From the IMG/VR virus record IMGVR_UViG_3300001687_000947: a DNA stretch of 64,000 nucleotides. One strand, given 5' to 3'. Positions 5,363 through 47,999 of the stretch are shown piece by piece. Origin of the DNA: a virus. Lineage: Duplodnaviria; Heunggongvirae; Uroviricota; Caudoviricetes. A program made the translations under genes and the position numbers. Below the pieces are notes generated by a model. That model worked only from the letters and a program-made list of their open reading frames with translations. It had not been told where the DNA came from and made no database searches. The stretch's first letter is position 1; every line of letters begins with the position of its first letter.

Positions 5363-6229
5363 TTGCTTGGTGATAATTTGCTATATATTCTTGGATTTAA
5401 GAGTAGTCAATATGAAAAGACTACTCCAATTAAATTATCTGAAGATTTTAATCTCAAGTTTGTTAATGGATTAAAAGATATTGAATTAACAAACAAGGAT
5501 GTTCTTATACGTTATGGAGTAACATATTTTCCTAAGAAAGATTATGATTGTAGAATTGTTATTAATAGTGCAAGGGCAGTTAGTGATACAATAGATAAAG
5601 TATTGAGTACAAAATTATTATTGCGTAGTAATATTCCTATGCCAAAGGTATTCTTTGATAGCAACAAGATTAGATACAAAGATTTGCCTGTGTTTAGAAG
5701 ATTGAAGAATCATTCTAAAGGAAAAGATATTATTATTGTGAGAAAACTTAAAGATATGCCTAAAGGAGATTTCTTTACTAAGTATATTCCAAGTAAACGT
5801 GAATATAGAATATTAGTGTTTAGAGGTCAAGCTTTAAGAATACAACTTAAACATAAGAAAAAAGAAAGTGTTAGAGATAAAGTTAAGAATTCTGAACATG
5901 GATACCGTTTCTTGAATGTGTTTGAACATAATGTTCCTATGGAGAAAAGACTTATACAAATAGCCATTAGGTCTGTTCAAGTGTTAAATTTGGATTTTGG
6001 TGCTGTAGATATTTTAGTTGGAAGAAATGGTAGACCTTATGTACTAGAAGTTAATTCTGCTCCAAGACTTAATAGAAGTGGTAGAGAACTGCTTATGCTT
6101 CATATACTTGAGACAGTTGGAGCAAAGTTTGATATGTTATCTTTTCATAGGATAAAAATGAATAATAGGTTACTTGACTTACCATTAAGGTTCATAACTT
6201 ATAATTCTAGTAAGAAAAGGAAAGATTAA
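5363..6229 (+). CDS. ATP-grasp ligase, RimK/LysX family
   Basis: The RRLKNHSKGKDIIIV glycine-rich loop and the C-terminal FGAVDILVGRNGRPYVLEVNSAPRL motif (E-x-N Mg/ATP site) are characteristic of RimK-like ATP-grasp enzymes. The start is probably TTG. Confidence 0.7.
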   Translation: MLGDNLLYILGFKSSQYEKTTPIKLSEDFNLKFVNGLKDIELTNKDVLIRYGVTYFPKKDYDCRIVINSARAVSDTIDKVLSTKLLLRSNIPMPKVFFDSNKIRYKDLPVFRRLKNHSKGKDIIIVRKLKDMPKGDFFTKYIPSKREYRILVFRGQALRIQLKHKKKESVRDKVKNSEHGYRFLNVFEHNVPMEKRLIQIAIRSVQVLNLDFGAVDILVGRNGRPYVLEVNSAPRLNRSGRELLMLHILETVGAKFDMLSFHRIKMNNRLLDLPLRFITYNSSKKRKD

Positions 6230-6449
6230 GCTTGGTTGTTGATTTTAGAGATAGGAAAAAAGCAGAGTGGCATCCTCTTATAATCTATGCTGATTTAATT
6301 GATGTTCAACAGGATTTTGAAGGTAATTGTCATATTATATTACGTAAACACAGGATTGAATCTATGAAGGTATCTATAGATAAGCTTAAGGAAGTTCTAG
6401 GCAAGTCATTGAAGTTTATGATAGCTGATTATCATGGAGATAAAGTATA

Positions 6450-7805
6450 ATGAAGTTTGATATTAATAAGCAAGGTATAGAAATAGAGTTTCAAATGCTT
6501 GATGGTAAAAATTACATTGGTGTTAACAAGAACTATAGAATGGGAGACTTAGCAAGAATTGATGGTGGATATCATATAGATGATGATAAGATTGAACTAT
6601 CAACTAAACCATATACACATCTAGGTGGTTTAGAAAACGCATTATGTGATAGTGTAGCTGGAGCAATAGAACATTTGGAAGAAAATACAGATGTTTTACC
6701 TTATACTATTGGTTGTCAACCATTTGAGAAAGACTTTGCTAGTGCACATATTCATACTAGTACAAAGAACATGGATAGGGAAACTTGGATAACTTTAAGA
6801 CAAAAGTTATGGAGTGCTCAACCATTAATTGATTTAATATCACAAAATTCACCTATACTTTATAACTTGAGAGCGGCTGATGTTAGAATGTTATTGTGTC
6901 AATGGGCACATGTTCCACCATTTGATTCAGAGGAAACATCACATTATATGTCAATAGCTTGGGGAGAAAATGGCAATACTATAGAGGTTAGAATACCAAG
7001 TAGTGGTCCTTTATCTCAACCTTTAGCAGTAGCTACTTTAATTAGGGTTATATTACAAGATGATTATGAACCAATACCATTAATATCAACTAAAGAAAAT
7101 TGGAAGAATGTTATTAATTATGGTTCATCCTCATTATGTAGGATAGGAATACCTTACAAGGTAAGCTATGAAGGATTAAAATATAATTCAATGTTGGTTA
7201 AATCAACTGATTTATTTAAGATATTTTATCAGGAAAACTATGATTTATTTAAGGAAGAATTAGATTATTTTTCTGCTAGTACATCTGGACAAGTAAGTAA
7301 ATTATTTGAATTGATTGCGGCAGGATATACTCTATCTGATGTGGTTTATGCTATATATCAGGAGAATATTAAAGAACCAAATAAAGTTAATAAGATTCTT
7401 TATGATATATTCTCAAGGACATATATGCGTAAAGATATGTTTTTGAAGTTTCCTGAAGTAAAATCATTTATGCCCATTATTAATGAATACTATTCTATGG
7501 ATGATTTGAGAGAAATAGTTGATAAATTCAAGGTATCTCCAATATCTAAGAGATTAGAGTTAATGAACAAAGATTGTCTTAGTGTATTTATGGGTAAGAA
7601 TGGATTCATTAGATCAAGAGAATCAAGAAAAATATTATATGATTTAGTTTCTTTTGGCGCAGTTGATTATAATTATTATAAAGGGGAAAAGATAGTTAGT
7701 TTATTAACTAAGACTAAAGCAATTAAGAAGAATGATAATAAGTTAGTTCCTGATGTTAATTTTAGGGAAGTTATTTCATTAGCTAAACAATCTGGAATGA
7801 TTTAA
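6450..7805 (+). CDS. Carboxylate-amine ligase, glutamate-cysteine ligase family 2 (GCS2/YbdK)-like
   Basis: The N-terminal GIEIEFQMLD resembles the GxExEhQ metal/substrate motif of the GCS2 family. A later SAHIHTS is His-x-His-like. The size (451 aa) fits. Confidence 0.45.
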   Translation: MKFDINKQGIEIEFQMLDGKNYIGVNKNYRMGDLARIDGGYHIDDDKIELSTKPYTHLGGLENALCDSVAGAIEHLEENTDVLPYTIGCQPFEKDFASAHIHTSTKNMDRETWITLRQKLWSAQPLIDLISQNSPILYNLRAADVRMLLCQWAHVPPFDSEETSHYMSIAWGENGNTIEVRIPSSGPLSQPLAVATLIRVILQDDYEPIPLISTKENWKNVINYGSSSLCRIGIPYKVSYEGLKYNSMLVKSTDLFKIFYQENYDLFKEELDYFSASTSGQVSKLFELIAAGYTLSDVVYAIYQENIKEPNKVNKILYDIFSRTYMRKDMFLKFPEVKSFMPIINEYYSMDDLREIVDKFKVSPISKRLELMNKDCLSVFMGKNGFIRSRESRKILYDLVSFGAVDYNYYKGEKIVSLLTKTKAIKKNDNKLVPDVNFREVISLAKQSGMI

Positions 7806-8948
7806 ATGATTACTGAAAGTTCAATTTTAGAGTCTGTAAAAGCTACTGAAAAATGGAATGATACTATTTATTTTAATGGTGATTTATCTGTTATTACGTC
7901 AAGTAATTTATTTTCAGATGTTTTGGCTAAAGAATTAAATTATTTTAAAGTTAAAAGTGATTTCTGTAGTGTTTATACGTTAAAGAACATTTCTATTTCA
8001 CAGGGGTATAATCCAAACTATGTTACGTTTGCATCTAATGATTTAAGATTGTATGATTTATTTGGTAATTTTATGAGGAAAGCAAGGATTCCAGTAATGT
8101 TCAAGGATTTCATAGAGTTTATTCATAAAAGAAATTTAAATTTTAGACTAATAGATATTCTTGGTAATGATAATAATGGTGATAATAAATCTAGTCAAAG
8201 AATAAATATTTATTTGCCTGAGTATAATAACTTTAATGCAATTAAACACGTTCTTAATTCAACTAAATTATTTCTAGAGTATTCATCTAAGTTAGATTCA
8301 GTAGATCCAAAAGTGTCATGTGCAATAAGGGGATGTGCTAATGTGCCAATGTATTATCCCAATATATGTTGTAGTCATATTCATCATTTACCTACTGAAG
8401 TGTTTGATAAGATAATTAATAATCAAGATTTTGAAATAAGTATTAATCAAGGAATAGATATTAGAAGGTTATTCCTTAAGAATATACTTGAAAAGGTTGT
8501 ATCTGGATACAGGATAATAGATGATGATTATTTTCAAGAGAAGTATAATGGATCAGAATGTTTAATATGTGGAGATGTTATAGAGAAAAATAATATATAT
8601 CCACCAGGATTTTGCCCAAATTGTTATTTGTATATTGATAAAGCAAAATTTGAAGCTGATTATAATAATGGAACAGCTAGTATAGAAATAATTAGAAACA
8701 AATTGTGGAAAACTTATTTAGTTTACTCTTTAAAATACATTAGATCACAAGTAAGGAAAAGAAAATCTAATGATAAAACAAATGGTAATAAACGGTCAAA
8801 TAAAGATTTTGTGGGTGTGCCTGTAGGGACCTTTAGGGGATATCATGTGGCTAATGTACATATGGGTGAAATGGATCATTTTCATCTAGCAGATGAAAAT
8901 GGGAATTGGGCAATAAATGAAAATGAAGAAGTAGAAATACTTGAGTGA
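7806..8948 (+). CDS. Cys/His-rich hypothetical protein inside ligase cluster
   Basis: A 380-aa ORF starts 1 nt after the preceding stop. It contains CAIRGCANVP...CCSHIHH and CLICGD...CPNCY zinc-binding-like motifs. Confidence 0.3.
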   Translation: MITESSILESVKATEKWNDTIYFNGDLSVITSSNLFSDVLAKELNYFKVKSDFCSVYTLKNISISQGYNPNYVTFASNDLRLYDLFGNFMRKARIPVMFKDFIEFIHKRNLNFRLIDILGNDNNGDNKSSQRINIYLPEYNNFNAIKHVLNSTKLFLEYSSKLDSVDPKVSCAIRGCANVPMYYPNICCSHIHHLPTEVFDKIINNQDFEISINQGIDIRRLFLKNILEKVVSGYRIIDDDYFQEKYNGSECLICGDVIEKNNIYPPGFCPNCYLYIDKAKFEADYNNGTASIEIIRNKLWKTYLVYSLKYIRSQVRKRKSNDKTNGNKRSNKDFVGVPVGTFRGYHVANVHMGEMDHFHLADENGNWAINENEEVEILE

Positions 8949-10154
8949 ATGATTATGTGTGGAATATCAGCTTGTATATTAGGAGAACAAAATATTGTAA
9001 GTTCCGTTAAGATAGTAAGTGAATTAATGGATAGGGGAAGAGATGCTACAGGTGTTGCTTTTGTTAAGAATGGTAAAGTGTTTGTTACTAAAGAAGCAGT
9101 TCCTCCAGATATTTTTCTTAAGAAGTATGAGGAAACATTAAGTGGTATAACTAGTAATATGGTTATAGCTCATAATAGGGGAGCATCAAGATTAATTGAT
9201 TCAGATAAAACTAAAGATACTGAATGTCATCCATTTCTAAGTGAAGATAAAACATTTGCATTGTTACATAATGGCGGTGTACCAAACTATTGGAATATAA
9301 TGAATTATCTAAAGTTTCTTGGTCATGAATTTTCTACTGGTATAGATTCAGAAGTACAAATGCATATGCTTGAAGATATCCTTAGAGTGTCTAAGAATAG
9401 AGAAGAAGCTATGAGAAGGTTTTATCAAACTTATTGTGGTAATATATTAGTTTTATTTGGTGATAATGAATTATACGGTTATGCTAGTAATGATTCATTT
9501 GTTATAGTTCAATCAGATGGAGCATTATATATAGGTTCAGCAGGTGAAGCTATATTTGATGCTATAGGTGAAAAGGTCTTAGGGGATAAAGTTTATGCTT
9601 TAAGACCAAAAGTAGCAACGTACATTAAAGTTACTGTTAAAGATGGTAAATATACATTAAAGTTGTACAGTAAAGATGCTTGGGTTAAATATCCACTTAA
9701 ATATAAAGATTGGACATTTTGTAAATATACTAAATGTGATTATTGTCATACTGATGAAGTTGCTTGTCAATCTGTTGGAATAAATGATAGATGTATTGAT
9801 TGCTACAAGAAGGGTATTTCAGAACCTAAGAGTTATGTTAATACAGCTGTGTATAATGCTAATGATGATGAGTCTAATATTCCAAGTGTTGGGAGAATAG
9901 TGGTGAAACAGAGCACACCAAAAGCTAAAGTAGGTGGTAAGGGTGAAGTTGCCATCTGTGCATATTGTCATTTACCACATCATATGAAAGCAATTATCCA
10001 ATGCACTAAATGTGGCAAGTATTATTGTATGTGGGATTTAAATAAACATAAATGTCATGTAATACCACAAGTTAATGCTACATTTCTAGGATGGATAGAT
10101 GGATTATTTAGAAAAATGGTAGATTATGCTGTTGTTGAGACTGAAGCAAGTTAA
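8949..10154 (+). CDS. Class II (Ntn-type) glutamine amidotransferase-like domain protein with Cys-rich C-terminal region
   Basis: MIMCGI...HNRGAS...HPF...LHNGG matches the MCGI/HxR/HNG pattern of GATase-2 enzymes. The true start is probably the second ATG at 8955, giving Met-Cys. The C-terminus has CDYCH...CIDCY and CAYCH...CTKCGKYYC motifs. Confidence 0.55.
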   Translation: MIMCGISACILGEQNIVSSVKIVSELMDRGRDATGVAFVKNGKVFVTKEAVPPDIFLKKYEETLSGITSNMVIAHNRGASRLIDSDKTKDTECHPFLSEDKTFALLHNGGVPNYWNIMNYLKFLGHEFSTGIDSEVQMHMLEDILRVSKNREEAMRRFYQTYCGNILVLFGDNELYGYASNDSFVIVQSDGALYIGSAGEAIFDAIGEKVLGDKVYALRPKVATYIKVTVKDGKYTLKLYSKDAWVKYPLKYKDWTFCKYTKCDYCHTDEVACQSVGINDRCIDCYKKGISEPKSYVNTAVYNANDDESNIPSVGRIVVKQSTPKAKVGGKGEVAICAYCHLPHHMKAIIQCTKCGKYYCMWDLNKHKCHVIPQVNATFLGWIDGLFRKMVDYAVVETEAS

Positions 10155-10167
10155 ATGGTGATAATTT

Positions 10168-11058
10168 ATGGCTAAGAGATTAATACATTTAGTTGAACGG
10201 AAAGACTTAATATCAGATTATAGGGCAACTTGGTTTAGATTATATAAAAATCTATATGGTGGTGATTCTATAATTACGGTTGAAAAGATAGATTCTGTTA
10301 ATAATAGACCAATATTTGATGGTAAATACATTTCACCTGATGATTGTCTAGTAATATATAATGGTTTAAGAGAATTTGAATCAGCTACTTTCTTAAGTGG
10401 TTGTGGATATACCATTGATGCTTTACCTGAAGTATTTAGAATATGTAGTCATAAACCATTATTAATGAGATTACTTAATACTTGGAATTTTCCAATAACA
10501 AAGTTTACTACAATTAGACAGGATCATCCTAATACTATTGTTTATACTTTTCATGGTGTAGAAGTATATCCTGATTTTAATAAGGTAAATAGAACTCATA
10601 CAAATGTAATTAAAGGATATTCTACGTGGGATGATAGTCAAATAGAAGGATATATTGTTCCATATTATTTATATGAGCCATTAGGTGTTTATAAGGTAAT
10701 ATGGCAAGCAAATAACACGTTTCTTTGTAATACAGAGGAAACTGATGGTAAATCTAAACTTAGAGCCTTTGGTCTAAAATTCACAAAAGCAAACTTGAAA
10801 ACATTAAGGAATTTACCTAAGTTAGAAGTTAATTCTCCATTTATTAAGCAAGTATCTAAAGCAATAAGAAGATTAGGTATAGTTGTTACTGATGTATTAG
10901 TTGGAATTGATAAAGGAAATAATCACAAGCCAACTATAATTGATATTAATTCTTCACATTATCCACAATCACCTTCAATAATTGGTTATGATTTGTACAA
11001 TATGTTACAAAGAGAAAGATTTCTAGAGTTTATGGATATAGGGAGAAAATATGAATAA
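10168..11058 (+). CDS. Second ATP-grasp-like ligase
   Basis: The central SHKPLLMRLLNTWNFPITKF pre-ATP-grasp motif and the C-terminal GIVVTDVLVGIDKGNNHKPTIIDINSSHYP parallel the DILVGRNGRPYVLEVNSAP motif of the first ATP-grasp. Confidence 0.45.
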   Translation: MAKRLIHLVERKDLISDYRATWFRLYKNLYGGDSIITVEKIDSVNNRPIFDGKYISPDDCLVIYNGLREFESATFLSGCGYTIDALPEVFRICSHKPLLMRLLNTWNFPITKFTTIRQDHPNTIVYTFHGVEVYPDFNKVNRTHTNVIKGYSTWDDSQIEGYIVPYYLYEPLGVYKVIWQANNTFLCNTEETDGKSKLRAFGLKFTKANLKTLRNLPKLEVNSPFIKQVSKAIRRLGIVVTDVLVGIDKGNNHKPTIIDINSSHYPQSPSIIGYDLYNMLQRERFLEFMDIGRKYE

Positions 11059-11531
11059 TGGGTAGAAAAGGAAGAAGACGCAGGAACAAGAAGAAGAATA
11101 GAAAAAATGAAAACTTGAATAATAAAGTAACTACAACTTTTTCATTAAAGAGTTTTATTCCTTCTGTTGCAGATGATACTAATAATGATTGCTGGAAGTG
11201 TAGTAGTTTAAACTTTGATTGGTTCAATCATTGTATTTATTGTGATAATGGTTATGTACACATTAATCCATATGAATTAATTCCCTTGATGAATAAATGT
11301 GAAAAGAAAGATTGTTTAAGACCTAACATTAGGGGAGCAACAGTTTTATTATTAAAGTTATTATGTGTATATCCTAAGATACATATACATAGTTTGCCTG
11401 AAGAATTGCTTGGAGCAATAGGAAACTTAGTGAGATATGATTTAGCTAGCGTAGGAAAGAGTACTGTTATTATTCCAACTATGTGGAATAATTATACTAC
11501 AAATAGAAGCACAATTTTGAAAATGGTGTAA
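11058..11531 (+). CDS. Basic-N-terminus (RKGRRRRNKKKNRK) zinc-ribbon protein
   Basis: An Arg/Lys-rich N-terminus is followed by CWKC...CIYC. Confidence 0.35.
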   Translation: MGRKGRRRRNKKKNRKNENLNNKVTTTFSLKSFIPSVADDTNNDCWKCSSLNFDWFNHCIYCDNGYVHINPYELIPLMNKCEKKDCLRPNIRGATVLLLKLLCVYPKIHIHSLPEELLGAIGNLVRYDLASVGKSTVIIPTMWNNYTTNRSTILKMV

Positions 11532-12312: not shown

Positions 12313-13086
12313 TTGAGTGAAATAATAAAGAAGTATGATGTTACAAGAGAGTTCCTAGATCAATTTTTCCCAAGTATAGAACAGATAGAAAAAATTAATC
12401 CAGAGATTCCATATGCAAACAATATAATATATCATAGCTTGATAGCATTTGGATTCCCAGCATCAGGTAAAACAACTTTGTGTAATACATTAGCTGGATA
12501 CGCTAGGGATAAATATGGTGATAAAAATGTTAATGCAATGTTTTCTGAGAAGGGTAATCTACAAGCTATACTTGATAATTTTAAGCCAAAACTAGTTAAT
12601 ATTTTGTATACAGATAATGCTACACTAGCAGAATATGACAAGAAAACTATACATGACTATTTTATGTTAAGGAATATTACAGCTAAGAAGTTTGGTATTA
12701 CTCAGGGATATATTTTGTCAATTATTGCTTTACATAGATACTTTGCTATTCCAATAGAGTTCAGAAGTATTATTGATGGTATGATACTTAGAGATGTTTC
12801 ATTAAATCCATATGATAATAATGTTATCAAGAAGTTCATTAGCAATGATGAGTTACATAAACTACTTAAAGAATTATCTGTTGATAGGAACAAACATAGA
12901 AAACTTATGAATTTCAGCATATTTGTTGGTAAGACTTTGAAGGGAGTGTTGTGCCTACCACCAAGAAGGGAATTCTACTTTAATGAGCCAGCTTCTCCTA
13001 TGGGGGATATTCCTATGTGGAGATTTGAAGATATCAATAAAGTTATTGAAGAACATGGGGGATATCACAATAAAGAAAAGCAATAA
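12313..13086 (+). CDS. P-loop NTPase/kinase-like protein
   Basis: Walker A motif GFPASGKTT is present. The start is probably TTG. Confidence 0.5.
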   Translation: MSEIIKKYDVTREFLDQFFPSIEQIEKINPEIPYANNIIYHSLIAFGFPASGKTTLCNTLAGYARDKYGDKNVNAMFSEKGNLQAILDNFKPKLVNILYTDNATLAEYDKKTIHDYFMLRNITAKKFGITQGYILSIIALHRYFAIPIEFRSIIDGMILRDVSLNPYDNNVIKKFISNDELHKLLKELSVDRNKHRKLMNFSIFVGKTLKGVLCLPPRREFYFNEPASPMGDIPMWRFEDINKVIEEHGGYHNKEKQ

Positions 13087-13169: not shown

Positions 13170-13835
13170 TTGAGAGTTACAAACATTATGAATAATGAAA
13201 AGAAAACCATTATTATGGATTCTAATGAACCTAAGCATATACAATATGAATTAGAGAAAGCTGGTTTAATTGTTGAGAGGAAGAGACTTAAGGCAGGAGA
13301 TTATTGTATAGGGAATATTTTACTTGAAAGAAAAACTATTGATGATTATTGGAGTACAATGTATGGTAAGAGATTGTTTAAGCAATTATTTAAGATGAAG
13401 AATAGTGATAAAAGGTGTTTCTTGGTTATAATTGGTAATTATCCAAGTAGAGATTTTGATATGCCTAAGAGGGAAATGGAAAAGCGTATTAAGGGAATGG
13501 GTTTAATTTCATTTATATCATTTGGTGTAATGTTTACTAGAGCTGAAACAGAAGAAAAATTTATAGAGTTTATTAAATGGTTATGGGAAAGATGTACAAC
13601 TAAAACTTATGCTCCAGTTGTTAAGAGTAAAGGGGAAACATCTGAGCAAATGAGATCATCAATGCTTGGTTGTATTAATGGTATTGGTTCAGCTTTAGCT
13701 GAGGAGTTATCACACTTTACCTTTCAAGAGTTAATTGATATGGGTGAAGATTTAAAGGATTACAAGTTTCATGGTAGAAGGATTGGTAAGAAAGCTAGTC
13801 TATTAATAGAGGTGTTAAAAAACAAAAATGAGTGA
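13170..13835 (+). CDS. ERCC4-type (XPF/Mus81/Hef family) structure-specific nuclease with C-terminal HhH
   Basis: VERKRLKAGDY...LLERKTIDDYWSTMYGKRLFKQL matches the ERK-x3-D...GRL-x2-Q ERCC4 signature. The C-terminal GIGSALAEEL is helix-hairpin-helix. Confidence 0.65.
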   Translation: MRVTNIMNNEKKTIIMDSNEPKHIQYELEKAGLIVERKRLKAGDYCIGNILLERKTIDDYWSTMYGKRLFKQLFKMKNSDKRCFLVIIGNYPSRDFDMPKREMEKRIKGMGLISFISFGVMFTRAETEEKFIEFIKWLWERCTTKTYAPVVKSKGETSEQMRSSMLGCINGIGSALAEELSHFTFQELIDMGEDLKDYKFHGRRIGKKASLLIEVLKNKNE

Positions 13836-14124
13836 ATCAATTGATGAGTTAGATTATTTAAAATATGGTAAATCCTTTGATACTTCTACAGTTAAAAGAC
13901 GTAGGAAAAAATGCAAAGAATGTACTGAGTGTCTTAGAGCTTTTCTTAAATCAGGGGATAAAGGTTGGAAAGTGAATAAAAGTTCATTACCTGCAAAGGA
14001 TCCTAATATTATTCTCTCTTCTCTGAAGTGGAGAGTTGACCATTTTCCTGAAGAGTTTGGAAATATCAGAGTTTTCATGAGTAAGGGTGAAATTTACCTA
14101 GAAAGAGGTGATGAGAATGAGTGA
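13828..14124 (+). CDS. Small Cys-containing basic protein, paralog A of a tandem pair
   Basis: MSESIDELDYLKYG...RRRKKCKEC...KGWKV...GEIYLERGDENE aligns along its whole length with the next ORF. Confidence 0.5.
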   Translation: MSESIDELDYLKYGKSFDTSTVKRRRKKCKECTECLRAFLKSGDKGWKVNKSSLPAKDPNIILSSLKWRVDHFPEEFGNIRVFMSKGEIYLERGDENE

Positions 14125-14407
14125 ATCTGATGAGTTAGATAATTTAAAATATGGTTGTCCTGTAGATTTATCTAAGGTTATTAGGCGCAGGAAAAGATGC
14201 CCACAATATGATGTTTGTCTAAGAGAATTTCTTAATTCATCCTACAAAGGTTGGAAAGTTGACCTCAATACTCTACCTAGTAAAAAACCTAGAACTGTTT
14301 TATCTTCTATTAAGTGGAGAATCAAACATATTCCTGAGTTTAAGGGAATTAAAACTTTCATGGCTAATGGTGAAATTTACCTAGAAAGAGTTGAGGATAA
14401 TGAGTGA
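14108..14407 (+). CDS. Small Cys-containing basic protein, paralog B of a tandem pair
   Basis: MSESDELDNLKYG...RRRKRCPQYDVC...KGWKV...GEIYLERVEDNE. The conserved C-terminus and junction are repeated. Confidence 0.5.
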   Translation: MMRMSESDELDNLKYGCPVDLSKVIRRRKRCPQYDVCLREFLNSSYKGWKVDLNTLPSKKPRTVLSSIKWRIKHIPEFKGIKTFMANGEIYLERVEDNE

Positions 14408-14620: not shown

Positions 14621-15322
14621 ATGAACAAAATAGGTTTTGAGAAAGAGTATTTTCTAGAGAACAAAAAGAAGGAGCTAGTTATTGATCCTGCTAGATATGG
14701 ATATGAGACTGATAACTTAGGTGTATTAGTTGAAGTACGTGGTAAACCAGATGTTACAGTTGCAGATGCTTTAGCTAGTTTGTTAGCTAAAGAAATTGTA
14801 GCAAAAGCTAGAGCTAGTGCTAAGGGATGGACATTAGTAGAGAAGAACTTCCGTAAGCTATCTGATGAGGAAATCTTGAGGATTACAGATAAATATCACA
14901 ATATGCTATCTGATAAACTAAAATCTATCAAGAGAAACAAATCATCTAGAGTTGAAAAGTCTTTCAAGATTACAAGGTTAACCGCTGGATTACACATACA
15001 TTTTTCTAAGGAAACAAGAGAACAAGTGGAACTAGTTAACATAACTACAAATGTAAATTCAACTAACAAAGATGGTGAAGTTAATCAAGATAGCAAGATT
15101 AAAGTTCACTATAAAGACATAGTTGCTAATACATTTCTTGATATGCCATTGATTATCAGGACATTAGATGAAGCGTTTGCTAAAGTAATTAAGAAATCAG
15201 GTAGAACAGCTGGTGCATATGAGATGAAAGACTGGGGATTTGAGTACAGAAGCTTACCTAACACAGTATCTCTAGAGAAGGTTGCAGGAATATGCAACAA
15301 AATTTTGAATATGGATATCTAA
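14621..15322 (+). CDS. Hypothetical protein
   Basis: The 233-aa ORF is preceded by a GGTG spacer. No motif was recognised. Confidence 0.3.
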   Translation: MNKIGFEKEYFLENKKKELVIDPARYGYETDNLGVLVEVRGKPDVTVADALASLLAKEIVAKARASAKGWTLVEKNFRKLSDEEILRITDKYHNMLSDKLKSIKRNKSSRVEKSFKITRLTAGLHIHFSKETREQVELVNITTNVNSTNKDGEVNQDSKIKVHYKDIVANTFLDMPLIIRTLDEAFAKVIKKSGRTAGAYEMKDWGFEYRSLPNTVSLEKVAGICNKILNMDI

Positions 15323-21976: not shown

Positions 21977-22144
21977 ATGAGAAACTGTAAGATATGTGGA
22001 GAGAAAATGGTTTTTAGTAAACCATTTAAGAAAGTGAAACTTAGGGATTTTATTGTTTATTATTGCCCAGAGTTTATATGTAAGAATAAACATACAATTA
22101 AAGTTAGTTATAAAGGAGAGATTATAAAAGATGAGATGCATTGA
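21977..22144 (+). CDS. Small zinc-ribbon protein (55 aa), below ORF-track threshold
   Basis: MRNCKICGEK...YYCPEFICKNKH. It overlaps the next ORF's start by 14 nt. Confidence 0.35.
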   Translation: MRNCKICGEKMVFSKPFKKVKLRDFIVYYCPEFICKNKHTIKVSYKGEIIKDEMH

Positions 22145-22292
22145 TTGTGATTCAAGTGTTTCCATTAAAGGATGTAAGAAGGGTGAAATAGTTACCTGTA
22201 GTGATTGTGGATTAGAGTATGAAATTGTTGTACGTAATGGAAGACTTGTTGCTATAGAGTTAGAGTTAGATGGTGAAGATTGGGGAGAATAG
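22131..22292 (+). CDS. lysW: LysW/ArgW-like amino-group carrier protein (53 aa)
   Basis: The translation is MRCIDCDSSVSIKGCKKGEIVTCSDCGLEYEIVVRNGRLVAIELELDGEDWGE. It has a CxxC...CxxC zinc ribbon, a GEIVTCSDCGLEYEIV core like GELVxCxDCGAELEV of characterised LysW, and an acidic tail ending in the hallmark EDWGE-COOH. Confidence 0.75.
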   Translation: MRCIDCDSSVSIKGCKKGEIVTCSDCGLEYEIVVRNGRLVAIELELDGEDWGE

Positions 22293-22802: not shown

Positions 22803-22857
22803 TCTAGACTGAGAGTGTGCTGGAAGTAAATACAGTATGGTCTGCAAAACCATATAT

Positions 22858-22920
22858 GAGAGTGAAAATCTCTCCACTCTCTCCAGATTATACTTTTTTT
22901 TTATTTTTTATTTTTTTATT
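22858..22920 (+). terminator. Intrinsic-type terminator: GAGAG-N7-CTCTC hairpin, nested in a longer GAGAGTG/CACTCTC inverted repeat, followed by T10/T-rich tract
   Basis: gagagtgaaaatctctccactctctcc is followed by tactttttttttattttttatttttttattt. It lies in the only large (177 bp) intergenic gap in this region. Confidence 0.5.
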
Positions 22921-45034: not shown

Positions 45035-45537
45035 ATAAATATGAACCAGTAGTTGCATCTGCACTTGCAGCAATACCAAAGGCTATTGTTATTAATGGTA
45101 GTAGACATGGTGTAGCTGTACTTATGAAAGATGGTACTATAGTGCAAGGATTTAATATTGAAAGTAGAGGATTTGATAACATTCATGGTGAGGTTGTAGC
45201 TATAATAATAGCATTGAACTTAGGTTATAGAAAGAATGATTTTGAAGGTATGGTTATAACTTGTGAAGGTAGAAGTGTGGTGCCTGGCTGTGCTACTTGT
45301 AGACAGTTTATGTGGGAACACACTAATCCAGATATGATAATTGTAGCATTTGATACAACTACAGCTAATGCTGAAATATATAAGCTTAGGGATTTATATC
45401 CGTTGCCTTATCCATCAGAGAAGAAACCTGTACCTAAACCAGAAGTAGTGGCTAAGAAAGTTGACAAAATAGTTAAAAGTAAGGACGTCAAAATAGAAGA
45501 TAAGGAAAGTGTTAAAGATGGTAAGAAAAAGGCTTGA
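45031..45537 (+). CDS. cdd: Cytidine deaminase (zinc-dependent CDA family) with Lys-rich C-terminal tail
   Basis: HGEVVAI (the H/C-x-E zinc/catalytic motif) and VVPGCATCRQFMWE (the PCxxCRQ motif) are present. Confidence 0.6.
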   Translation: MNKYEPVVASALAAIPKAIVINGSRHGVAVLMKDGTIVQGFNIESRGFDNIHGEVVAIIIALNLGYRKNDFEGMVITCEGRSVVPGCATCRQFMWEHTNPDMIIVAFDTTTANAEIYKLRDLYPLPYPSEKKPVPKPEVVAKKVDKIVKSKDVKIEDKESVKDGKKKA

Positions 45538-46690
45538 GTTAAGTAAGGAATTTTTAGATAATTTATATACTAATGAAAGGATGTCTATTAGGGAAATAGC
45601 TAAGAAAGTTGGGGGTTCTAAGGGACAAATAGAATATTTGCTTGAGTTATATGGTATTCCTAAACGGTCATTTAGTGAATCACATAAAGTTAAGCATAAT
45701 AGAAGAGTAGAGAAAGAACAAAGGGAAGAAGTTGAGGCTCTTAAGAAGAGAATTAAAGGATTTAAGATTAATACTACTTTTAGCCCAGCTGTTAAGAGAA
45801 ATATGTTGATTCCTGTTCCAATTGATAATAAATGTAGAGATGCATCTGTTACACTTGTTATGTCTGATGCTCATGTTGGTGATGTGGGACATTTACCTAA
45901 ATGTTTTTGGTCTTCATTCACTAACGCTATGGAAGTAATAAAGAATATTAATAGTTTCTATAAGATTAAGAAACTTAATTTACTTATTAATGGTGATGTT
46001 GTTTCTGGTGTTAATATTTATAGGTATCAAGAATTAAGTAATCTTGTACAGCGTGGTAATTGGCAAGTTGCACTTGCTGAAATAATTATTAGGGATATGC
46101 TTAAAGAATTAGAGAAGTATAAGAAAATTGATGATATTGTTTTTGTACGTGGAACACATGAGAAGTTTGGTAATAACTTTATTTTATACTTGAAGAGAAT
46201 AATGTCTGGTAACACTATATATTTATCTCATGGTGGAGTTTATGATTTAGGTCTTAAACCATATAAGCATCATACATTGTTTATGCATGGTTATGGATTC
46301 AATAATTCTAGTCCAGTATCTAGTAGAATGATTAATGATGTTATGAAGATTGTTAATAACTATAAGAATATGGGTATGAATGTTAATAGAGTATGTAGTG
46401 CTCATAGTCATTGGCTTAGTAGTGGATTAATAATTAATGATATTTACTGGGATACTACAGGTGGATTCCAGAAATGGGCTTATACTATTAATCAGAGACC
46501 ATGTGGTATGATTGTTTACTTGTGTGCTGGTGATGAATGTCTAAGTATTCCAGTTAGACCAAATAGTGATGTTGAACTAGAAGAAAAGTTTGATCCTGGT
46601 TTAAAGTACAGAAACTTGGTGTATTATGGTAATTATTTATTGAAGCATTTAAAGGAAGTTGAGGGGATAGAACAAAATGAGTATAGCTAA
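45509..46690 (+). CDS. N-terminal HTH domain fused to calcineurin-like metallophosphoesterase
   Basis: MSIREIAKKVGGSKGQIEYLLELYGI is an HTH. The phosphoesterase signatures are VMSDAHVGD (DxH), INGDVVSG (GDxxD), VRGTHEKF (GNHE-like) and HGG. Confidence 0.5.
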   Translation: MLKMVRKRLELSKEFLDNLYTNERMSIREIAKKVGGSKGQIEYLLELYGIPKRSFSESHKVKHNRRVEKEQREEVEALKKRIKGFKINTTFSPAVKRNMLIPVPIDNKCRDASVTLVMSDAHVGDVGHLPKCFWSSFTNAMEVIKNINSFYKIKKLNLLINGDVVSGVNIYRYQELSNLVQRGNWQVALAEIIIRDMLKELEKYKKIDDIVFVRGTHEKFGNNFILYLKRIMSGNTIYLSHGGVYDLGLKPYKHHTLFMHGYGFNNSSPVSSRMINDVMKIVNNYKNMGMNVNRVCSAHSHWLSSGLIINDIYWDTTGGFQKWAYTINQRPCGMIVYLCAGDECLSIPVRPNSDVELEEKFDPGLKYRNLVYYGNYLLKHLKEVEGIEQNEYS

Positions 46691-47873
46691 ACTTAAATTA
46701 TTATGGCATAGTGTAGCACCTTGGATACGTAGTGGTTACGGTAACGTAACTAATCAAGTTGTTAGTAGACTAGTTAAATTTGGATTTGATGTAATGATAT
46801 CAGCATATTATGGAACTGAACCAGGTGGTGAACTTGAGTATAATGGTGTAAAAGTAGTGTCAAGTAAGGAAGGACCATTTGGTATAGATTCAGCTTCTAA
46901 GTATGCTAGACGTTATGGTTGTGATGCGGGATTATTGTTTACTGATTGGTGGGCATTTAGTAATTTCCCTAAGATTCTACCTAGACCAATATTGTATGGT
47001 CCAATGGATCACACTAATTATAGTGAGGAAATATTAAATTTCACTAGGATGTACAGTAAAATAATTAGTTTGTGTAAATGGCAACAAGATTACTTGAAGA
47101 GTGTTGGTATAGAGTCTGATATGATATATCATGGTGTAGATACTTCAGTATTTAAACCATTAAATAAAGCTGAGTGTAGAAAGAGATATGGTATTCCTGA
47201 AGGAGTATTTGTTATTGGAAGTGTAAGAGCAAATAGTGATAAGGAAGACCGTAAAGGACACACCCGTGATATGAAAGCAGTATCTTACTGGTTAGAGCAA
47301 CATCCAGAAATTGACCGTAAGAAAATAGTGTGGATGTACCATACTGTAGCTAATGATCCAAGAGGTATGCCTTTAACAAGTATTGCTCATAAGTATGGTT
47401 TAGATGATATTATTAAGTTTATGGATCCAAGTCAACATGATACTATGATATCAACTGAAGATTTAGTTAAGTTAATGAACACTTTTGATTTTCATTTAAT
47501 GTGTAGTAAACGTGAAGGATTTGGTTTAACATTACTTGAAACTATGGCATGTGGAGTACCTAATATTACTCATAATTTTAGTAGTATGACAGAACTAGTT
47601 GAAGGTCATGGATGGTTATGTAAAAGTTTAGGTACAGGATTAAATCTTGAAACTACACCCATTAATGCTGAAACTGCTCATCCTGATGTGTATAGTATTG
47701 TTGATTGTATAGAGGAAGCTTACTTTAAAGATGATCTTAGAAAGAAATATGGTAAAGAAAGCCGTAAGTTTGCATTAAAGTTTAATTGGGATGATTTAGT
47801 GGTTAATGAGTGGGTTCCAGTACTTGATAGTTTACTTGAAGATAAATGCATTGATGACAGGAGATTGATATAG
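46677..47873 (+). CDS. Glycosyltransferase, GT4-like (GT-B fold)
   Basis: CSKREGFGLTLLETMACGVPNIT matches the E-x7-E GT4 C-terminal motif. Confidence 0.6.
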   Translation: MSIAKLKLLWHSVAPWIRSGYGNVTNQVVSRLVKFGFDVMISAYYGTEPGGELEYNGVKVVSSKEGPFGIDSASKYARRYGCDAGLLFTDWWAFSNFPKILPRPILYGPMDHTNYSEEILNFTRMYSKIISLCKWQQDYLKSVGIESDMIYHGVDTSVFKPLNKAECRKRYGIPEGVFVIGSVRANSDKEDRKGHTRDMKAVSYWLEQHPEIDRKKIVWMYHTVANDPRGMPLTSIAHKYGLDDIIKFMDPSQHDTMISTEDLVKLMNTFDFHLMCSKREGFGLTLLETMACGVPNITHNFSSMTELVEGHGWLCKSLGTGLNLETTPINAETAHPDVYSIVDCIEEAYFKDDLRKKYGKESRKFALKFNWDDLVVNEWVPVLDSLLEDKCIDDRRLI

Positions 47874-47999
47874 TGAGTAAAGAGTTGGATAAAGTAATAA
47901 TTACAATAACAGAAGATAATAAATTTAGTATTAACGGATATGATCCAGTTGTTATAACAAAGACAATTGATATTAAAATAGAAAAAATGTGGAAAGCGT

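What the first reader, a model, noticed from the sequence alone, without database searches (positions are those of the whole stretch)
5363..11058. Contiguous amino-acid/peptide ligation cluster: ATP-grasp + GCS2-like ligase + Ntn amidotransferase + second ATP-grasp
Six consecutive genes are joined end-to-end (stop/start overlaps of 1-3 nt). They encode a RimK-like ATP-grasp, a 72-aa protein, a GCS2/YbdK-like carboxylate-amine ligase, a 380-aa Cys-rich protein, a class-II (Cys1 Ntn) glutamine-amidotransferase-like protein with a zinc-binding tail, and a second ATP-grasp. This combination has been predicted in comparative-genomic work to synthesise and trim peptide tags on proteins or make small peptide metabolites. 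It has not been characterised experimentally in a virus. Combined with the LysW-like carrier at 22.1 kb, it suggests a carrier- or protein-directed amino-acid ligation pathway.
Basis: partly seen in the sequence, partly recalled or inferred. Interest (0 to 1): 0.7.

Follow-up and report, generated by a model that had tools for sequence, protein, structure and literature searches.

The report
Viral amide-ligase and glutaminase gene cassette
A probable archaeal tailed virus carries a conserved block of genes for two ATP-dependent amide-bond ligases and a glutamine-type amidohydrolase; it is a new version of a cassette long predicted in bacteriophages, whose substrate nobody has yet identified.

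Summary
The six ORFs exist at the stated coordinates. Five of the six identity calls hold:
- O1 is a RimK-family ATP-grasp with intact Mg/ATP motifs.
- O2 is a small protein that sits directly upstream of O3 in all six lineages examined.
- O3 has the YbdK/GCS2 carboxylate-amine ligase fold (model pLDDT 85; Foldseek E 5e-9).
- O4 is a lineage-specific Zn-ribbon protein.
- O5 is a stand-alone class-II (Ntn) glutaminase domain with an invariant Cys1/Arg/Asn-Gly/Asp site, two invariant Zn modules and no synthase domain.

O6 as a "second ATP-grasp" is unproven. It gives only sub-threshold, co-linear hints, its Mg ligands are not conserved, and it is missing from the most distant relative.

Tight gene packing is the genome-wide norm, so it is not evidence of an operon. 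The evidence for a unit is conserved order down to about 30% identity, plus the same ATP-grasp sitting with amidoligases and GATases in PA11-like and phiEco32-like phages.

The LysW-like protein is genuine (it ends in EDWGE). However, it lies 11 kb away and is absent from the fetched flanks of relatives that keep the cassette.

Verdict: a new variant, probably in an archaeal virus, of a known, computationally predicted and still uncharacterised phage cassette. It most likely performs glutamyl-type ligation and amide hydrolysis on a protein or peptide. The target is unknown.

The parts
5363..6229 (+). O1: RimK-family ATP-grasp amino-acid ligase (288 aa)
   Evidence: Pfam RimK is above its gathering cut-off; rimK_fam 2e-10 and MptN 1.4e-8; phrog_2599 2.5e-28. 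The best PDB matches to the family profile are RimK structures. K79, R112, E147, R149, K163, D216 and E229-V-N231 are invariant across archaeal-virus and phage homologues. It is 30-33% identical to ATP-grasp genes in 306 phage records.
6232..6450 (+). O2: small conserved partner protein (72 aa), always directly upstream of O3
   Evidence: Homologues precede the O3 homologue in L001, L002, L003, L012 and, as an uncalled 48-aa ORF, in L004. D28, G31, N32 and K39 are invariant. It matches no known family. The C-termini are not conserved and not acidic.
6450..7805 (+). O3: GCS2/YbdK-fold carboxylate-amine ligase (451 aa) with a C-terminal extension of about 90 aa
   Evidence: The family has 16 members among 5.8 billion clusters. 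Conserved motifs are QGIEIE, ASGHIHTS, SQNSP..RAADVR and TIEVRIPSS. Nine of 16 members give weak GCS2 hits. The AF2 model has pLDDT 85.3 and pTM 0.80. The top Foldseek matches are YbdK 1r8g/1tt4 (E 5e-9, TM 0.7), followed by glutamate-cysteine ligases, PafA/Dop and glutamine synthetases. Viral matches are phage 'amidoligase' and 'COOH.NH2 ligase' proteins.
7806..8948 (+). O4: lineage-specific Zn-ribbon protein (380 aa), always between O3 and O5
   Evidence: N78, D79, P138, C172, P185, C188, C252, C255, C270 and C273 are invariant. No family was found beyond zinc-ribbon hints. A protein in the same position, sharing sequence features with O4 but not detected by phmmer, occurs in L012.
8955..10154 (+). 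O5: stand-alone class-II (Ntn) glutaminase domain plus two C-terminal Zn modules (399 aa counted from the ATG before Cys; the ORF as listed starts at 8949)
   Evidence: GATase_6 and GATase_7 are above their gathering cut-offs. The glmS profile aligns to its N-terminal domain only, at 1e-19. Invariant residues, numbered from the Met at 8955, are C2, R27-G28, H73-N74-R75, N106-G107 and D131-S-E133, plus C261/C264/C271/C280/C283 and C335/C338/C350/C353/C358/H365/C367. In all six lineages the start codon directly precedes the Cys codon, including ATT, ATC and ACG starts.
10168..11058 (+). O6: lineage-specific protein (296 aa), possibly a degenerate ATP-grasp-like protein
   Evidence: The family has only 19 members among 1.84 billion representatives. 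The hints are sub-threshold but co-linear: PurK 3ax6 at E 0.055-0.19 over residues 68-114; hhalign against the O1 family over the same motif, P 0.003-0.006 and probability 6-11%; and the Ins134_P3_kin ATP-grasp profile at 0.15. The E-x-N Mg ligands are not conserved. The 2-sequence AF2 model failed (pLDDT 35). Its Foldseek hits are not significant but are enriched in ATP-grasp folds. O6 is absent from L012.
11058..11531 (+). O7: conserved downstream neighbour (157 aa) with a basic N-terminus and a Cys-rich segment; whether it belongs to the cassette is uncertain
   Evidence: Homologues follow O6 in L001-L004. A 180-aa protein with a similar C-terminal motif follows O5 in L012. It matches no family.
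14621..15322 (+).
   Evidence: The motifs GFEKE, VEVRG, GLHIHFS and FEYRSLP occur in the order typical of COOH-NH2 ligases. phrog_3815 'COOH.NH2 ligase' gives 4.7e-4 and PF14395 gives 0.028. A homologue lies at a different position in L003. The assignment is weak.
22131..22292 (+). LysW-like amino-group carrier protein (53 aa; Zn ribbon, C-terminal GEDWGE); in the same genome but not linked to the cassette
   Evidence: phmmer matches LysW structures 3wwl at 7.8e-6, plus 3vpb and 5k2m, over the full length including EDWGE. The precomputed Pfam hit is PF21344 Zn_ribbon_LysW. It was not found in the fetched flanks of the related contigs or in 50,697 phage records.

Best explanation
The block is a virus-encoded multi-enzyme module for making and hydrolysing amide bonds. 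It is a variant, probably from an archaeal virus, of the phage 'ATP-grasp + glutamine-synthetase-fold amidoligase + Ntn (class-II) glutaminase' cassette.

Shown:
- O1 is an intact RimK-type ATP-grasp.
- O3 is a YbdK/GCS2-fold ligase with the family's metal- and phosphate-binding motifs.
- O5 is an intact Ntn glutaminase with no synthase domain and two Zn modules.
- O2 and O4 are obligate, lineage-specific partners.

Inferred mechanism:
- O1 and O3 each activate a carboxylate with ATP, through an acyl-phosphate, and join it to an amine.
- O1 most likely adds L-glutamate to a terminal carboxylate, as RimK-type enzymes do.
- O3, working with O2, makes a gamma-glutamyl-type or other carboxylate-amine bond.
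- O5 uses Cys1 either to cleave glutamine and supply ammonia that converts a carboxylate into an amide, or to cleave a gamma-glutamyl amide bond (trimming).
- The Zn-ribbon modules of O4 and O5 dock the enzymes on a macromolecule.

I commit to a protein or peptide, of host or virus, as the most likely substrate. The product would be a short glutamyl-type tag or an amidated tail, made early in infection. O6 is at best a degenerate, probably non-catalytic ATP-grasp-like accessory.
For: - Enzyme identities.
- Conserved order: O1, O2, O3, O4 and O5 keep their order in six metagenomic lineages down to about 30% identity for O3. O2 is always just upstream of O3.
- Independent recurrence: O1's closest relatives are phage ATP-grasps that lie beside Amidoligase_2, COOH-NH2_lig and GAT-II genes in TC6/PA11 and Kuravirus phages.
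- Leads pointing to a protein or peptide target. The nearest characterised relatives of O1 are RimK enzymes, which glutamylate ribosomal protein S6. O5 and O4 carry invariant Zn modules that catalysis does not need. One relative has a peptide deformylase and a second GCS2 paralogue inside the block. The same contig encodes a GGACT gamma-glutamylamine cyclotransferase-like protein. It also encodes an archaeal eS30 ribosomal protein directly followed by a further PF14395 COOH-NH2 ligase.
Against: - No substrate has been identified. No encoded protein has a conserved acceptor tail.
- The whole region is syntenic among these related viruses, so conserved order alone is weak evidence of a functional unit.
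- Tight packing is the genome-wide norm.
- O1 also matches the cofactor glutamate ligases MptN and CofF, which fits a small-molecule substrate.
- GS-fold ligase plus glutaminase-like hydrolase pairs in cells usually act on small amines (own knowledge: PuuA/PuuD, EgtA/EgtC).
- The direction of O5's reaction, ammonia donor or gamma-glutamyl hydrolase, cannot be told from sequence.
Confidence: 0.5

Rival explanations
1. Small-molecule route. The ligases make or remodel a low-molecular-weight gamma- or alpha-glutamyl compound. Candidates are a gamma-glutamyl-amine or polyamine, a short peptide metabolite, or the glutamyl tail of an archaeal cofactor such as F420 or methanopterin. O5, and the GGACT encoded elsewhere on the contig, would remove or recycle the glutamyl group.
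For: - O1's longest NCBIfam alignment is to MptN (tetrahydromethanopterin:alpha-L-glutamate ligase, 1.4e-8, residues 65-235), and it also matches CofF.
- O3's best structural matches are YbdK and glutamate-cysteine ligases, which act on small molecules.
- GGACT-like genes occur on this contig and in L004, and a GGCT-family cyclotransferase occurs in DNTV-1.
- Known cellular pairs of a GS-fold ligase with a glutaminase-like hydrolase act on small amines (own knowledge).
Against: - The invariant Zn-ribbon modules on O5 and O4, and the obligate small protein O2, are unexpected for a purely small-molecule pathway.
- All equivalog-level scores fall far below their cut-offs.
- No other cofactor- or polyamine-pathway genes were found in the window.
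Confidence: 0.2
2. Carrier-protein route. O1 (or O6) loads an amino acid onto the C-terminal Glu of the viral LysW-like protein, and O3 and O5 elaborate the tethered intermediate.
For: - The genome encodes a genuine LysW homologue with a Zn ribbon and the C-terminal EDWGE.
- LysX and ArgX belong to the same RimK family as O1; LysX_arch scores 3e-6.
- The nanohaloarchaeal virus DNTV-1 also has LysW (ORF73), a RimK-like ATP-grasp (ORF64), an Amidoligase_2 (ORF22) and a stand-alone glutaminase (ORF23).
Against: - LysW lies 11 kb from the cassette, among unrelated small genes.
- No LysW-like ORF is present in the fetched flanks of five related contigs, including the syntenic site upstream of the radical-SAM gene in L001 and L005.
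- No LysZ/Y/J/K-type kinase, reductase, aminotransferase or deacylase was found in the window.
- O1 is much closer to phage ATP-grasps, whose phage records gave no tblastn match to this LysW-like protein at E<=1 (2.5e-28), than to LysX.
Confidence: 0.1
3. Nucleic-acid route. The enzymes append or amidate amino-acid moieties on DNA (base hypermodification) or RNA, to evade host nucleases.
For: - The cassette lies in the early/DNA-metabolism block: a P-loop ATPase, an ERCC4 nuclease, RlaP and DNA methylases lie downstream.
- In phages the homologous cassette sits beside primase/helicase and DNA polymerase genes.
- Amidoligase and amidotransferase genes co-occur with thymidine-hypermodification genes in viromes (PMC8989533).
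- L002 has a thymidylate-synthase-like gene 3 kb downstream.
- Zn ribbons, and a C-terminal extension on O3 that looks like a winged helix, could bind nucleic acid (the winged-helix reading is my inference).
Against: - No thymidylate-synthase/hydroxymethylase or TET/JBP family appeared in the Pfam scans of the window, and the P-loop ORF at 12313-13086 matched no kinase family. These scans would not necessarily detect a 5-hmU DNA kinase or an aGPT-pyrophosphorylase.
- No member of these enzyme families has been shown to act on DNA.
Confidence: 0.1
4. No joint function. The genes are neighbours only because the whole early region is syntenic in this virus group, and they act in unrelated processes.
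For: Flanking genes are equally syntenic. Packing is uniform across the genome. No promoter or terminator signal delimits the block.
Against: - The same three enzyme classes are neighbours in unrelated bacteriophages.
- A GS-fold amidoligase and a stand-alone glutaminase are also adjacent (ORF22/23) in DNTV-1.
- The O2-O3 and O3-O4-O5 adjacencies survive to 30% identity, while O6 and inserted genes come and go.
Confidence: 0.05

Closest known systems
Phage ATP-grasp / amidoligase / COOH-NH2 ligase / GAT-II cassettes. Examples are Pseudomonas phages PA11 and TC6 and the phiEco32-like Kuravirus phages. They were predicted computationally by Iyer, Abhiman, Burroughs and Aravind (Mol Biosyst 2009). 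That paper is not held in the library; I cite it from my own knowledge and through PMC10580990 and PMC11706807.
   Same: - The ATP-grasp is homologous: 30-33% identity, phrog_2599 2.5e-28, phmmer 6.7e-25 to TC6_048.
- It is likewise adjacent to GS-fold amidoligases and a class-II GATase with a Cys-containing tail.
- It likewise sits in an early or replication-proximal position.
- It is likewise uncharacterised.
   Different: - The ligase inside the block is a YbdK/GCS2-like family confined to this virus lineage, not PF12224 or PF14395. A PF14395 gene lies elsewhere on the contig.
- O2, O4 and O6 have no detectable counterparts in the phage cassettes.
- The host is probably archaeal.
RimK, the ribosomal protein S6 poly-alpha-L-glutamate ligase
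   Same: It is the best characterised structural and sequence relative of O1, with the same Mg/ATP motif set.
   Different: Scores are far below the equivalog cut-offs (20.9 bits against 331 for PRK10446). No S6-like acceptor has been identified. Archaea lack bS6 (own knowledge).
YbdK/GCS2 carboxylate-amine ligases, and the cellular ligase plus glutaminase-like hydrolase pairs EgtA/EgtC and PuuA/PuuD (the pairs are from my own knowledge)
   Same: O3 has the YbdK fold (TM 0.68-0.71 normalised to the target). It is paired with a glutaminase-type hydrolase.
   Different: - The window protein gives no Pfam GCS2 hit.
- It carries about 90 extra C-terminal residues.
- It has an obligate small partner, O2.
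- The EgtC profile matches O5 only at 0.06.
LysW/LysX amino-group carrier protein system
   Same: The genome encodes a true LysW homologue with the EDWGE tail, and a RimK/LysX-superfamily ligase.
   Different: The genes are not adjacent, no downstream pathway enzymes were found, and LysW is absent from the relatives' flanks.
Pup / PafA / Dop protein tagging
   Same: O3's model matches PafA and Dop structures at E about 2e-6. A small protein is encoded next to the ligase, and an amidohydrolase is present.
   Different: O2 has no conserved C-terminal Gly-Gly-Gln/Glu and no acidic tail. The similarity to PafA/Dop is at superfamily level only, and YbdK matches better.
Nanohaloarchaeal tailed virus DNTV-1 (bioRxiv 10.1101/2025.02.15.638363)
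   Same: Its annotated toolkit is the same: Amidoligase_2 adjacent to a stand-alone GlmS-type glutaminase, a RimK-like ATP-grasp, LysW and GGCT. It also shares RlaP, RadA, an ERCC4-type nuclease and a dual-specificity phosphatase.
   Different: Its genes are scattered rather than in one block. Its authors state that the substrates cannot be predicted.

Membership tests
RimK-family ATP-grasp ligase (O1) | Profile match above the curated threshold | tested here: met
   Pfam PF08443 scores 27.5 bits against a gathering cut-off of 21, and phrog_2599 gives 2.5e-28. NCBIfam subfamily and equivalog cut-offs are NOT reached: rimK_fam scores 40.5 against 143.4. This is membership at superfamily/family level only.
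RimK-family ATP-grasp ligase (O1) | Conserved ATP/Mg-binding residues (Lys/Arg, Glu-x-Arg, Asp ... Glu-x-Asn) | tested here: met
   K79, R112, E147, R149, K163, D216, E229 and N231 are invariant in 8 archaeal-virus and phage homologues.
RimK-family ATP-grasp ligase (O1) | ATP-dependent addition of L-glutamate to a carboxylate | not testable with these tools
   Needs a biochemical assay.
GCS2/YbdK carboxylate-amine ligase (O3) | Pfam PF04107 match above threshold | tested here: not met
   The window protein gives no hit. Nine of 16 family members give sub-threshold hits, the best at 1.4e-4.
GCS2/YbdK carboxylate-amine ligase (O3) | Glutamine-synthetase-like fold closest to YbdK | tested here: met
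   The AF2 model has pLDDT 85.3. The Foldseek top hits are YbdK 1r8g/1tt4 at E 5e-9 to 9e-9 with target-normalised TM 0.68-0.71.
GCS2/YbdK carboxylate-amine ligase (O3) | Conserved G-x-E-x-E, H-x-H and E-x-R metal/phosphate motifs | tested here: met
   QGIEIE is present in all full-length members, and H100/H102 and E179/R181 are invariant. Mapping these onto YbdK active-site residues is inference.
Class-II (Ntn) glutamine amidotransferase (O5) | Profile match above the curated threshold | tested here: met
   GATase_6 scores 37.0 bits against 27, and GATase_7 scores 29.9 against 25. The glmS profile aligns positions 1-209 at 1e-19.
Class-II (Ntn) glutamine amidotransferase (O5) | N-terminal catalytic Cys immediately after the initiator | tested here: met
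   The start codon (ATG, ATT, ATC or ACG) directly precedes the Cys codon in all six lineages. MCGI is invariant.
Class-II (Ntn) glutamine amidotransferase (O5) | Glutamine-binding Arg, Asn-Gly and Asp | tested here: met
   R75, N106-G107 and D131 are invariant. Their correspondence to GlmS R73, N98-G99 and D123 is from my own knowledge.
Class-II (Ntn) glutamine amidotransferase (O5) | Fused acceptor (synthase) domain, as in GlmS, PurF, AsnB and GltB | tested here: not met
   Nothing beyond about residue 215 matches a synthase domain. Only two invariant Cys/His modules are found there. O5 is therefore a stand-alone glutaminase or amidohydrolase.
ATP-grasp (O6) | Significant profile or fold match | tested here: inconclusive
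   The best results are PurK at E 0.055, hhalign probability 6-11%, Pfam 0.15 and Foldseek E 0.35 on a model with pLDDT 35. All hints are co-linear with ATP-grasp architecture, but none is significant.
ATP-grasp (O6) | Conserved Mg ligands (Asp/Glu ... Glu-x-Asn) and ATP-binding Lys | tested here: not met
   Across 19 members the Glu position is occupied by Asn or Asp, the Asn position varies, and no conserved Lys occupies the expected strand. Only D84, K96 and L99 are invariant.
LysW/AmCP-dependent pathway | Carrier with a Zn ribbon and a C-terminal EDWGE | tested here: met
   (protein at 22131-22292).
LysW/AmCP-dependent pathway | Carrier gene clustered with a LysX/ArgX-type ligase and LysZ/Y/J/K-type enzymes | tested here: not met
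   LysW is 11 kb from O1. No such families appear in the Pfam scans of the window. LysW is absent from the relatives' flanks.
Phage amidoligase/GAT-II/ATP-grasp cassette | Adjacent ATP-grasp, at least one GS-fold amidoligase and a class-II GATase in a virus genome | tested here: met
   for the window; for the TC6 and LAMP reference cassettes.
Phage amidoligase/GAT-II/ATP-grasp cassette | Amidoligase of the PF12224 or PF14395 families inside the cassette | tested here: not met
   O3 is GCS2/YbdK-like instead. A PF14395 gene lies about 6 kb upstream on the contig, outside the window. A weak PF14395-like ORF lies at 14621-15322.
Pup/PafA/Dop tagging | Small tag protein with a conserved C-terminal Gly-Gly-Gln/Glu | tested here: not met
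   The O2 C-termini differ in every lineage (V, E, Q, R, E, V).

The most novel reading that the evidence does not exclude
The virus runs a protein-tagging or carrier-protein pathway of its own. One of its small proteins would be the acceptor: the LysW-like carrier (through its C-terminal Glu), the obligate O3 partner O2 (through its invariant Lys39), or the virus-encoded ribosomal protein eS30 that sits next to a third amidoligase. The acceptor would be covalently loaded with glutamyl-type units by O1 and O3, then amidated or trimmed by O5 and GGACT. This would be the first virus-encoded amino-group-carrier or Pup-like conjugation system, possibly aimed at reprogramming archaeal ribosomes.
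Probability: 0.12. Interest if true: 0.85.

Novelty: new variant of a known kind. Interest (0 to 1): 0.5.

Why it matters
Cassettes combining an ATP-grasp, amidoligases and a class-II glutaminase occur in hundreds of phage genomes and have been flagged since 2009. Papers from 2023 and 2025 still report no known substrate. This version is unusually tractable and informative for five reasons:
- It is compact.
- The catalytic sites of O1, O3 and O5 are demonstrably intact.
- Its core is defined by conservation (O1, O2, O3, O4, O5).
- It comes from a probable archaeal virus.
- That virus also encodes candidate acceptors and recycling enzymes: a LysW-like carrier, an eS30 ribosomal protein next to another amidoligase, and a GGACT.

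Identifying the product would assign a function to a widespread class of viral 'auxiliary' genes. It could also reveal a new way for viruses to modify host or viral proteins, or cofactors.

Tried and rejected
- blastn of the 5.7-kb block against 50,697 phage records gave no match. tblastn of O3 against phages gave none.
- A search for O3 relatives in IMG/VR viral contigs and in 185,579 GTDB genomes found none.
- The O6 homologue search returned only itself and one relative. The 2-sequence AF2 model failed with pLDDT 35, so its fold search is only suggestive.
- hhalign of the O3 family against TC6_047, TC6_051 and the 233-aa ORF gave nothing significant.
- O4 and O2 matched nothing meaningful in Pfam or the PDB.
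- I searched for acidic acceptor tails. The portal, O4, the LysW-like protein and a tandem pair at 13828/14108 have them. The pair is not conserved in relatives, and the tails of O2 are not acidic.
- LysW relatives were not found in IMG/VR or in phage records.
- Sigma-70 promoter and terminator scans show no boundaries and fewer promoter-like sites than shuffled sequence. This is uninformative for an archaeal virus.
- The Iyer et al. 2009 paper could not be opened, so its content is cited second-hand.
- Rejected: an asparagine-synthetase reading of O5 (no synthase domain) and a D-Ala-D-Ala ligase reading of O1 (much weaker than RimK).

Full report
**What is in the sequence**

The window has 30% G+C, about 93% of it is coding, and every sizeable ORF lies on the + strand. 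It belongs to a tailed virus. The evidence is a portal protein, a family-B DNA polymerase, a RadA/Rad51 with an HhH domain, an anaerobic ribonucleotide reductase, DNA methylases and one tRNA-Cys.

The host is very probably archaeal:
- The polymerase's best matches in the phage collection are haloarchaeal tailed viruses, at 25% identity.
- The recombinase is RadA-type.
- The contig from which the window is cut (ENA ERZ27279932 k141_7886333, 96,876 bp; window = positions 4880-68879) encodes an archaeal ribosomal protein eS30 just upstream of the window. It matches archaeal S30E chains in the PDB at 1.1e-7.

**The observation**

The junctions are a 2-nt spacer, a 1-nt overlap, abutting, abutting, a 13-nt spacer, and a 1-nt overlap into the next gene. 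The O4/O5 junction becomes a 6-nt spacer if O5 starts at the ATG at 8955 that directly precedes Cys.

This tightness is not a property of the block. The median gap over 106 junctions in the window is 1.5 nt. No promoter- or terminator-like signal delimits the block.

What is unusual is the run of large ORFs. Five are >=288 aa, in a region where the median ORF is 97 aa.

**O1 (5363-6229)**

O1 is a RimK-family ATP-grasp. Pfam RimK is above its gathering score. NCBIfam rimK_fam gives 2e-10, MptN 1.4e-8 and LysX 3e-6, while D-Ala-D-Ala ligase gives only 9e-4. The PHROG family annotated 'ribosomal protein S6 glutaminyl transferase' gives 2.5e-28. A profile of its family finds RimK structures first in the PDB.

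Residues K79, R112, E147, R149, K163, D216 and E229-x-N231 are invariant across archaeal-virus and phage homologues. The enzyme therefore looks catalytically competent.

**O3 (6450-7805)**

O3 gave no hit in Pfam, NCBIfam, PHROGs or the PDB by sequence. A homologue search found only 16 proteins among 5.8 billion clusters.

Their alignment shows QGIEIE, ASGHIHTS, SQNSP..RAADVR and TIEVRIPSS. This is the order of motifs expected for glutamine-synthetase-fold amidoligases. Nine of the 16 members give sub-threshold GCS2 hits.

An AlphaFold model built on this alignment is confident (pLDDT 85, pTM 0.80). Foldseek places it next to YbdK (1r8g, 1tt4; E 5e-9; TM about 0.7 on the target). After YbdK come glutamate-cysteine ligases, PafA/Dop and glutamine synthetases. 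Against viral models it matches phage 'amidoligase' and 'COOH.NH2 ligase' proteins more weakly.

The family itself is new and confined to this virus lineage: no relative was found in IMG/VR or GTDB genomes.

**O5 (8955-10154)**

O5 is a class-II Ntn glutaminase domain. GATase_6 and GATase_7 are above threshold, and the glmS profile aligns at 1e-19 to its first 209 positions only.

After correcting mis-called N-termini in relatives, an alignment of six lineages shows these invariant residues (numbered from the Met at 8955): Cys2, R27-G28, H73-N74-R75, N106-G107 and D131-S-E133. This is the full glutamine-binding and nucleophile set of GlmS-type enzymes; the mapping to GlmS is from my own knowledge.

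No synthase domain follows. Instead there are two invariant Cys/His clusters.

In three relatives the gene starts at ATT, ATC or ACG, placed directly before the Cys codon and 6-10 nt downstream of an AGGAGG-like site. This shows how strictly the N-terminal Cys is kept.

**O2 and O4**

O2 (72 aa) has no known family. It lies immediately upstream of the O3 homologue in every lineage, including an uncalled 48-aa ORF in L004. D28, G31, N32 and K39 are invariant. Its C-terminus is neither acidic nor conserved, so it is not a LysW- or Pup-like acceptor of the classical kind.

O4 always sits between O3 and O5. It has invariant Cys pairs typical of zinc ribbons and is otherwise novel.

**O6 (10168-11058)**

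The 'second ATP-grasp' could not be confirmed. Its family has only 19 members among 1.84 billion representatives. The evidence consists of sub-threshold signals:
- The G-Y-x-V-D..K..L...L....P-V-P segment aligns with the junction motif of ATP-grasp enzymes, in PurK (E 0.055-0.19) and in the O1 family (hhalign P 0.003-0.006, probability 6-11%).
- One Pfam ATP-grasp model hits the C-terminal region at 0.15.

The signals are co-linear with the ATP-grasp architecture. However, the Mg ligands and the ATP-binding Lys are not conserved.

The only structure prediction I was allowed used two sequences and failed (pLDDT 35). Its fold search gave no significant hit, although RimK, PsnB, ITPK1, Vip1/Asp1 and synapsin, all ATP-grasp folds, crowd the top of the list.

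O6 is missing from the most distant relative, where O5 is followed directly by the O7-like gene. I read O6 as an accessory, possibly degenerate, ATP-grasp-like protein.

**Is it a functional unit?**

The order O1 ... O2-O3-O4-O5 is kept in six metagenomic lineages, down to about 30% identity for O3. The flanks are syntenic too, so this alone is weak evidence.

Two further observations are stronger.

First, the block is plastic around a fixed core. L004 and L005 insert a second GCS2-like paralogue and a peptide deformylase between O1 and O2. L012 places a paralogue before O1 and lacks O6. P0003's contig carries two PF14395 ligases upstream.

Second, the same enzyme classes are neighbours in unrelated bacteriophages. 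O1 has homologues at 30-33% identity in 306 phage records. In Pseudomonas phage TC6 and Escherichia phage LAMP these lie beside Amidoligase_2, COOH-NH2_lig and class-II GATase genes, next to primase/helicase and DNA polymerase genes.

This is the cassette discussed by Iyer et al. 2009. I could not open that paper. Its predictions are summarised in PMC10580990 and PMC11706807, which also say that the function remains to be explored.

**Wider context in the same genome**

Just upstream of the window lie a GGACT-like gamma-glutamylamine cyclotransferase, a GNAT acetyltransferase, the eS30 gene and, 16 nt after it, a 403-aa PF14395 COOH-NH2 ligase.

The virus thus carries three or four GS-fold ligases, one or two ATP-grasps, one Ntn glutaminase and a gamma-glutamyl-cleaving enzyme. 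This is a marked investment in glutamyl/amide chemistry.

**The LysW link**

The 53-aa protein at 22131-22292 is a true LysW homologue. It has the zinc ribbon and the terminal GEDWGE, matches three LysW structures and has a precomputed PF21344 hit.

It is 11 kb from the cassette, among small unrelated genes. It has no detectable counterpart in the fetched flanks of five related contigs, including the syntenic position before the radical-SAM gene in L001 and L005. No LysZ/Y/J/K-type enzymes were found in the window. O1 is also far closer to ATP-grasps from phages, whose records gave no tblastn match to this LysW-like protein at E<=1, than to LysX.

The one point in favour of a link comes from the nanohaloarchaeal tailed virus DNTV-1. 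It is annotated with LysW, a RimK-like ATP-grasp, an Amidoligase_2 adjacent to a stand-alone GlmS glutaminase, and a GGCT. Its authors call the substrates unpredictable. I keep the carrier idea as a low-probability, high-value reading.

**Mechanism**

Shown: two competent ATP-dependent carboxylate-amine ligases of different folds, one competent Cys-nucleophile glutamine-type amidohydrolase with no acceptor domain, and conserved non-catalytic partners rich in zinc ribbons.

Inferred:
- O1 adds glutamate in RimK fashion.
- O3, with O2, forms a gamma-glutamyl-type or other amide.
- O5 either supplies ammonia to amidate a carboxylate or trims a gamma-glutamyl amide.
- O4 and the tail of O5 dock the enzymes on a macromolecule.

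I favour a protein or peptide target, with confidence about 0.5 for the whole statement. The reasons are the RimK precedent, the zinc modules, the deformylase inserted in one variant, GGACT, and the eS30-ligase adjacency.

The rivals are a small-molecule gamma/alpha-glutamyl product (0.2; O1 resembles MptN and CofF, O3 resembles YbdK and GCL), the LysW carrier route (0.1), nucleic-acid modification (0.1; amidoligases and amidotransferases co-occur with thymidine-hypermodification genes, PMC8989533) and no joint function (0.05).

**Novelty and score**

The kind of system is known and has been predicted since 2009, so the finding is not categorically new. It is a new variant for three reasons:
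- The ligase inside the block belongs to a different, lineage-restricted family.
- O2, O4 and O6 are new partner proteins.
- The host is probably archaeal, and the genome encodes several candidate acceptors.

Interest is 0.5. The cassette is real, conserved and uncharacterised.

Noticed in passing
L014:2881-3072 and L014:3088-4299 (same contig, about 0.6-2 kb upstream of window position 1): The virus encodes a 63-aa archaeal-type ribosomal protein eS30 (precomputed PF04758; PDB S30E 1.1e-7). It is followed after 16 nt by a 403-aa PF14395 phiEco32-like COOH-NH2 ligase. This adjacency recalls RimK and ribosomal protein S6, and it supports an archaeal host.
   Followed up: partly
L001:12557, L012:7822, L003:12265 (O5 homologues): The Ntn glutaminase gene starts at ATT, ATC or ACG placed directly before the catalytic Cys codon, each 6-10 nt downstream of an AGGAGG-like site. 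Gene callers truncated these proteins at internal Met or Val codons.
   Followed up: yes
L014:492-797 (upstream of the window) and L004:726-1142: GGACT/AIG2-like gamma-glutamylamine cyclotransferase genes occur in this virus and in a relative (33% identity). A GGCT-family cyclotransferase is also annotated in the nanohaloarchaeal virus DNTV-1.
   Followed up: partly
L004:6720-8423 and L005:1217-2920: One related lineage inserts a second GCS2-like paralogue (388 aa) and a peptide deformylase (PF01327) between the ATP-grasp and the O2-O3 pair. A deformylase is odd for a virus of archaea, which do not formylate the initiator Met.
   Followed up: no
window 45500-58900: A large glycan or lipid-linked sugar module. 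It has two NAD-dependent epimerases/dehydratases, an NTP transferase, GT2 and GT1/GT4 glycosyltransferases (one GT2 fused to a dual-specificity phosphatase domain) and a UbiA prenyltransferase. It also has a 642-aa radical-SAM/SPASM protein, an FkbM methyltransferase and DUF362.
   Followed up: no
window 13828-14124 and 14108-14407: Tandem paralogues (98 and 99 aa) that both end in ...GEIYLER(G/V)(D/E)(E/D)NE. They were not found in the fetched flanks of related contigs.
   Followed up: partly
window 22811-22885: A single tRNA-Cys(GCA) in a genome crowded with Cys-rich zinc-ribbon ORFs. It lies between the LysW-like gene and a radical-SAM gene, which is probably the activase for NrdD (my inference).
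   Followed up: no
window 58865-59377 and 59356-61101; L004:14316-15821: A LAGLIDADG homing-endonuclease ORF overlaps the start of the NrdD gene. A relative carries a 501-aa protein with a weak intein-splicing hit.
   Followed up: no
window 32000-64000 (one ORF; exact position not mapped): An Ogg-type HhH DNA glycosylase family (PF22175, 4e-20) and a dCMP deaminase family were detected among ORFs of the right half of the window. They were not assigned to individual ORFs.
   Followed up: no
window 6450-7805, residues about 350-451: O3 has a C-terminal extension absent from YbdK. It is modelled as several helices plus a beta-hairpin, which looks like a winged helix. This suggests a nucleic-acid- or protein-docking module, but the idea was not tested.
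   Followed up: no
whole window: GC skew is strongly positive throughout (+0.23 to +0.50), and all genes lie on one strand.
   Followed up: no
L015:11868-17045 (contig 68888-74065, downstream of the window): A 1725-aa ORF with no Pfam hit follows the CxxCxxCC-domain gene just beyond the window's end.
   Followed up: no
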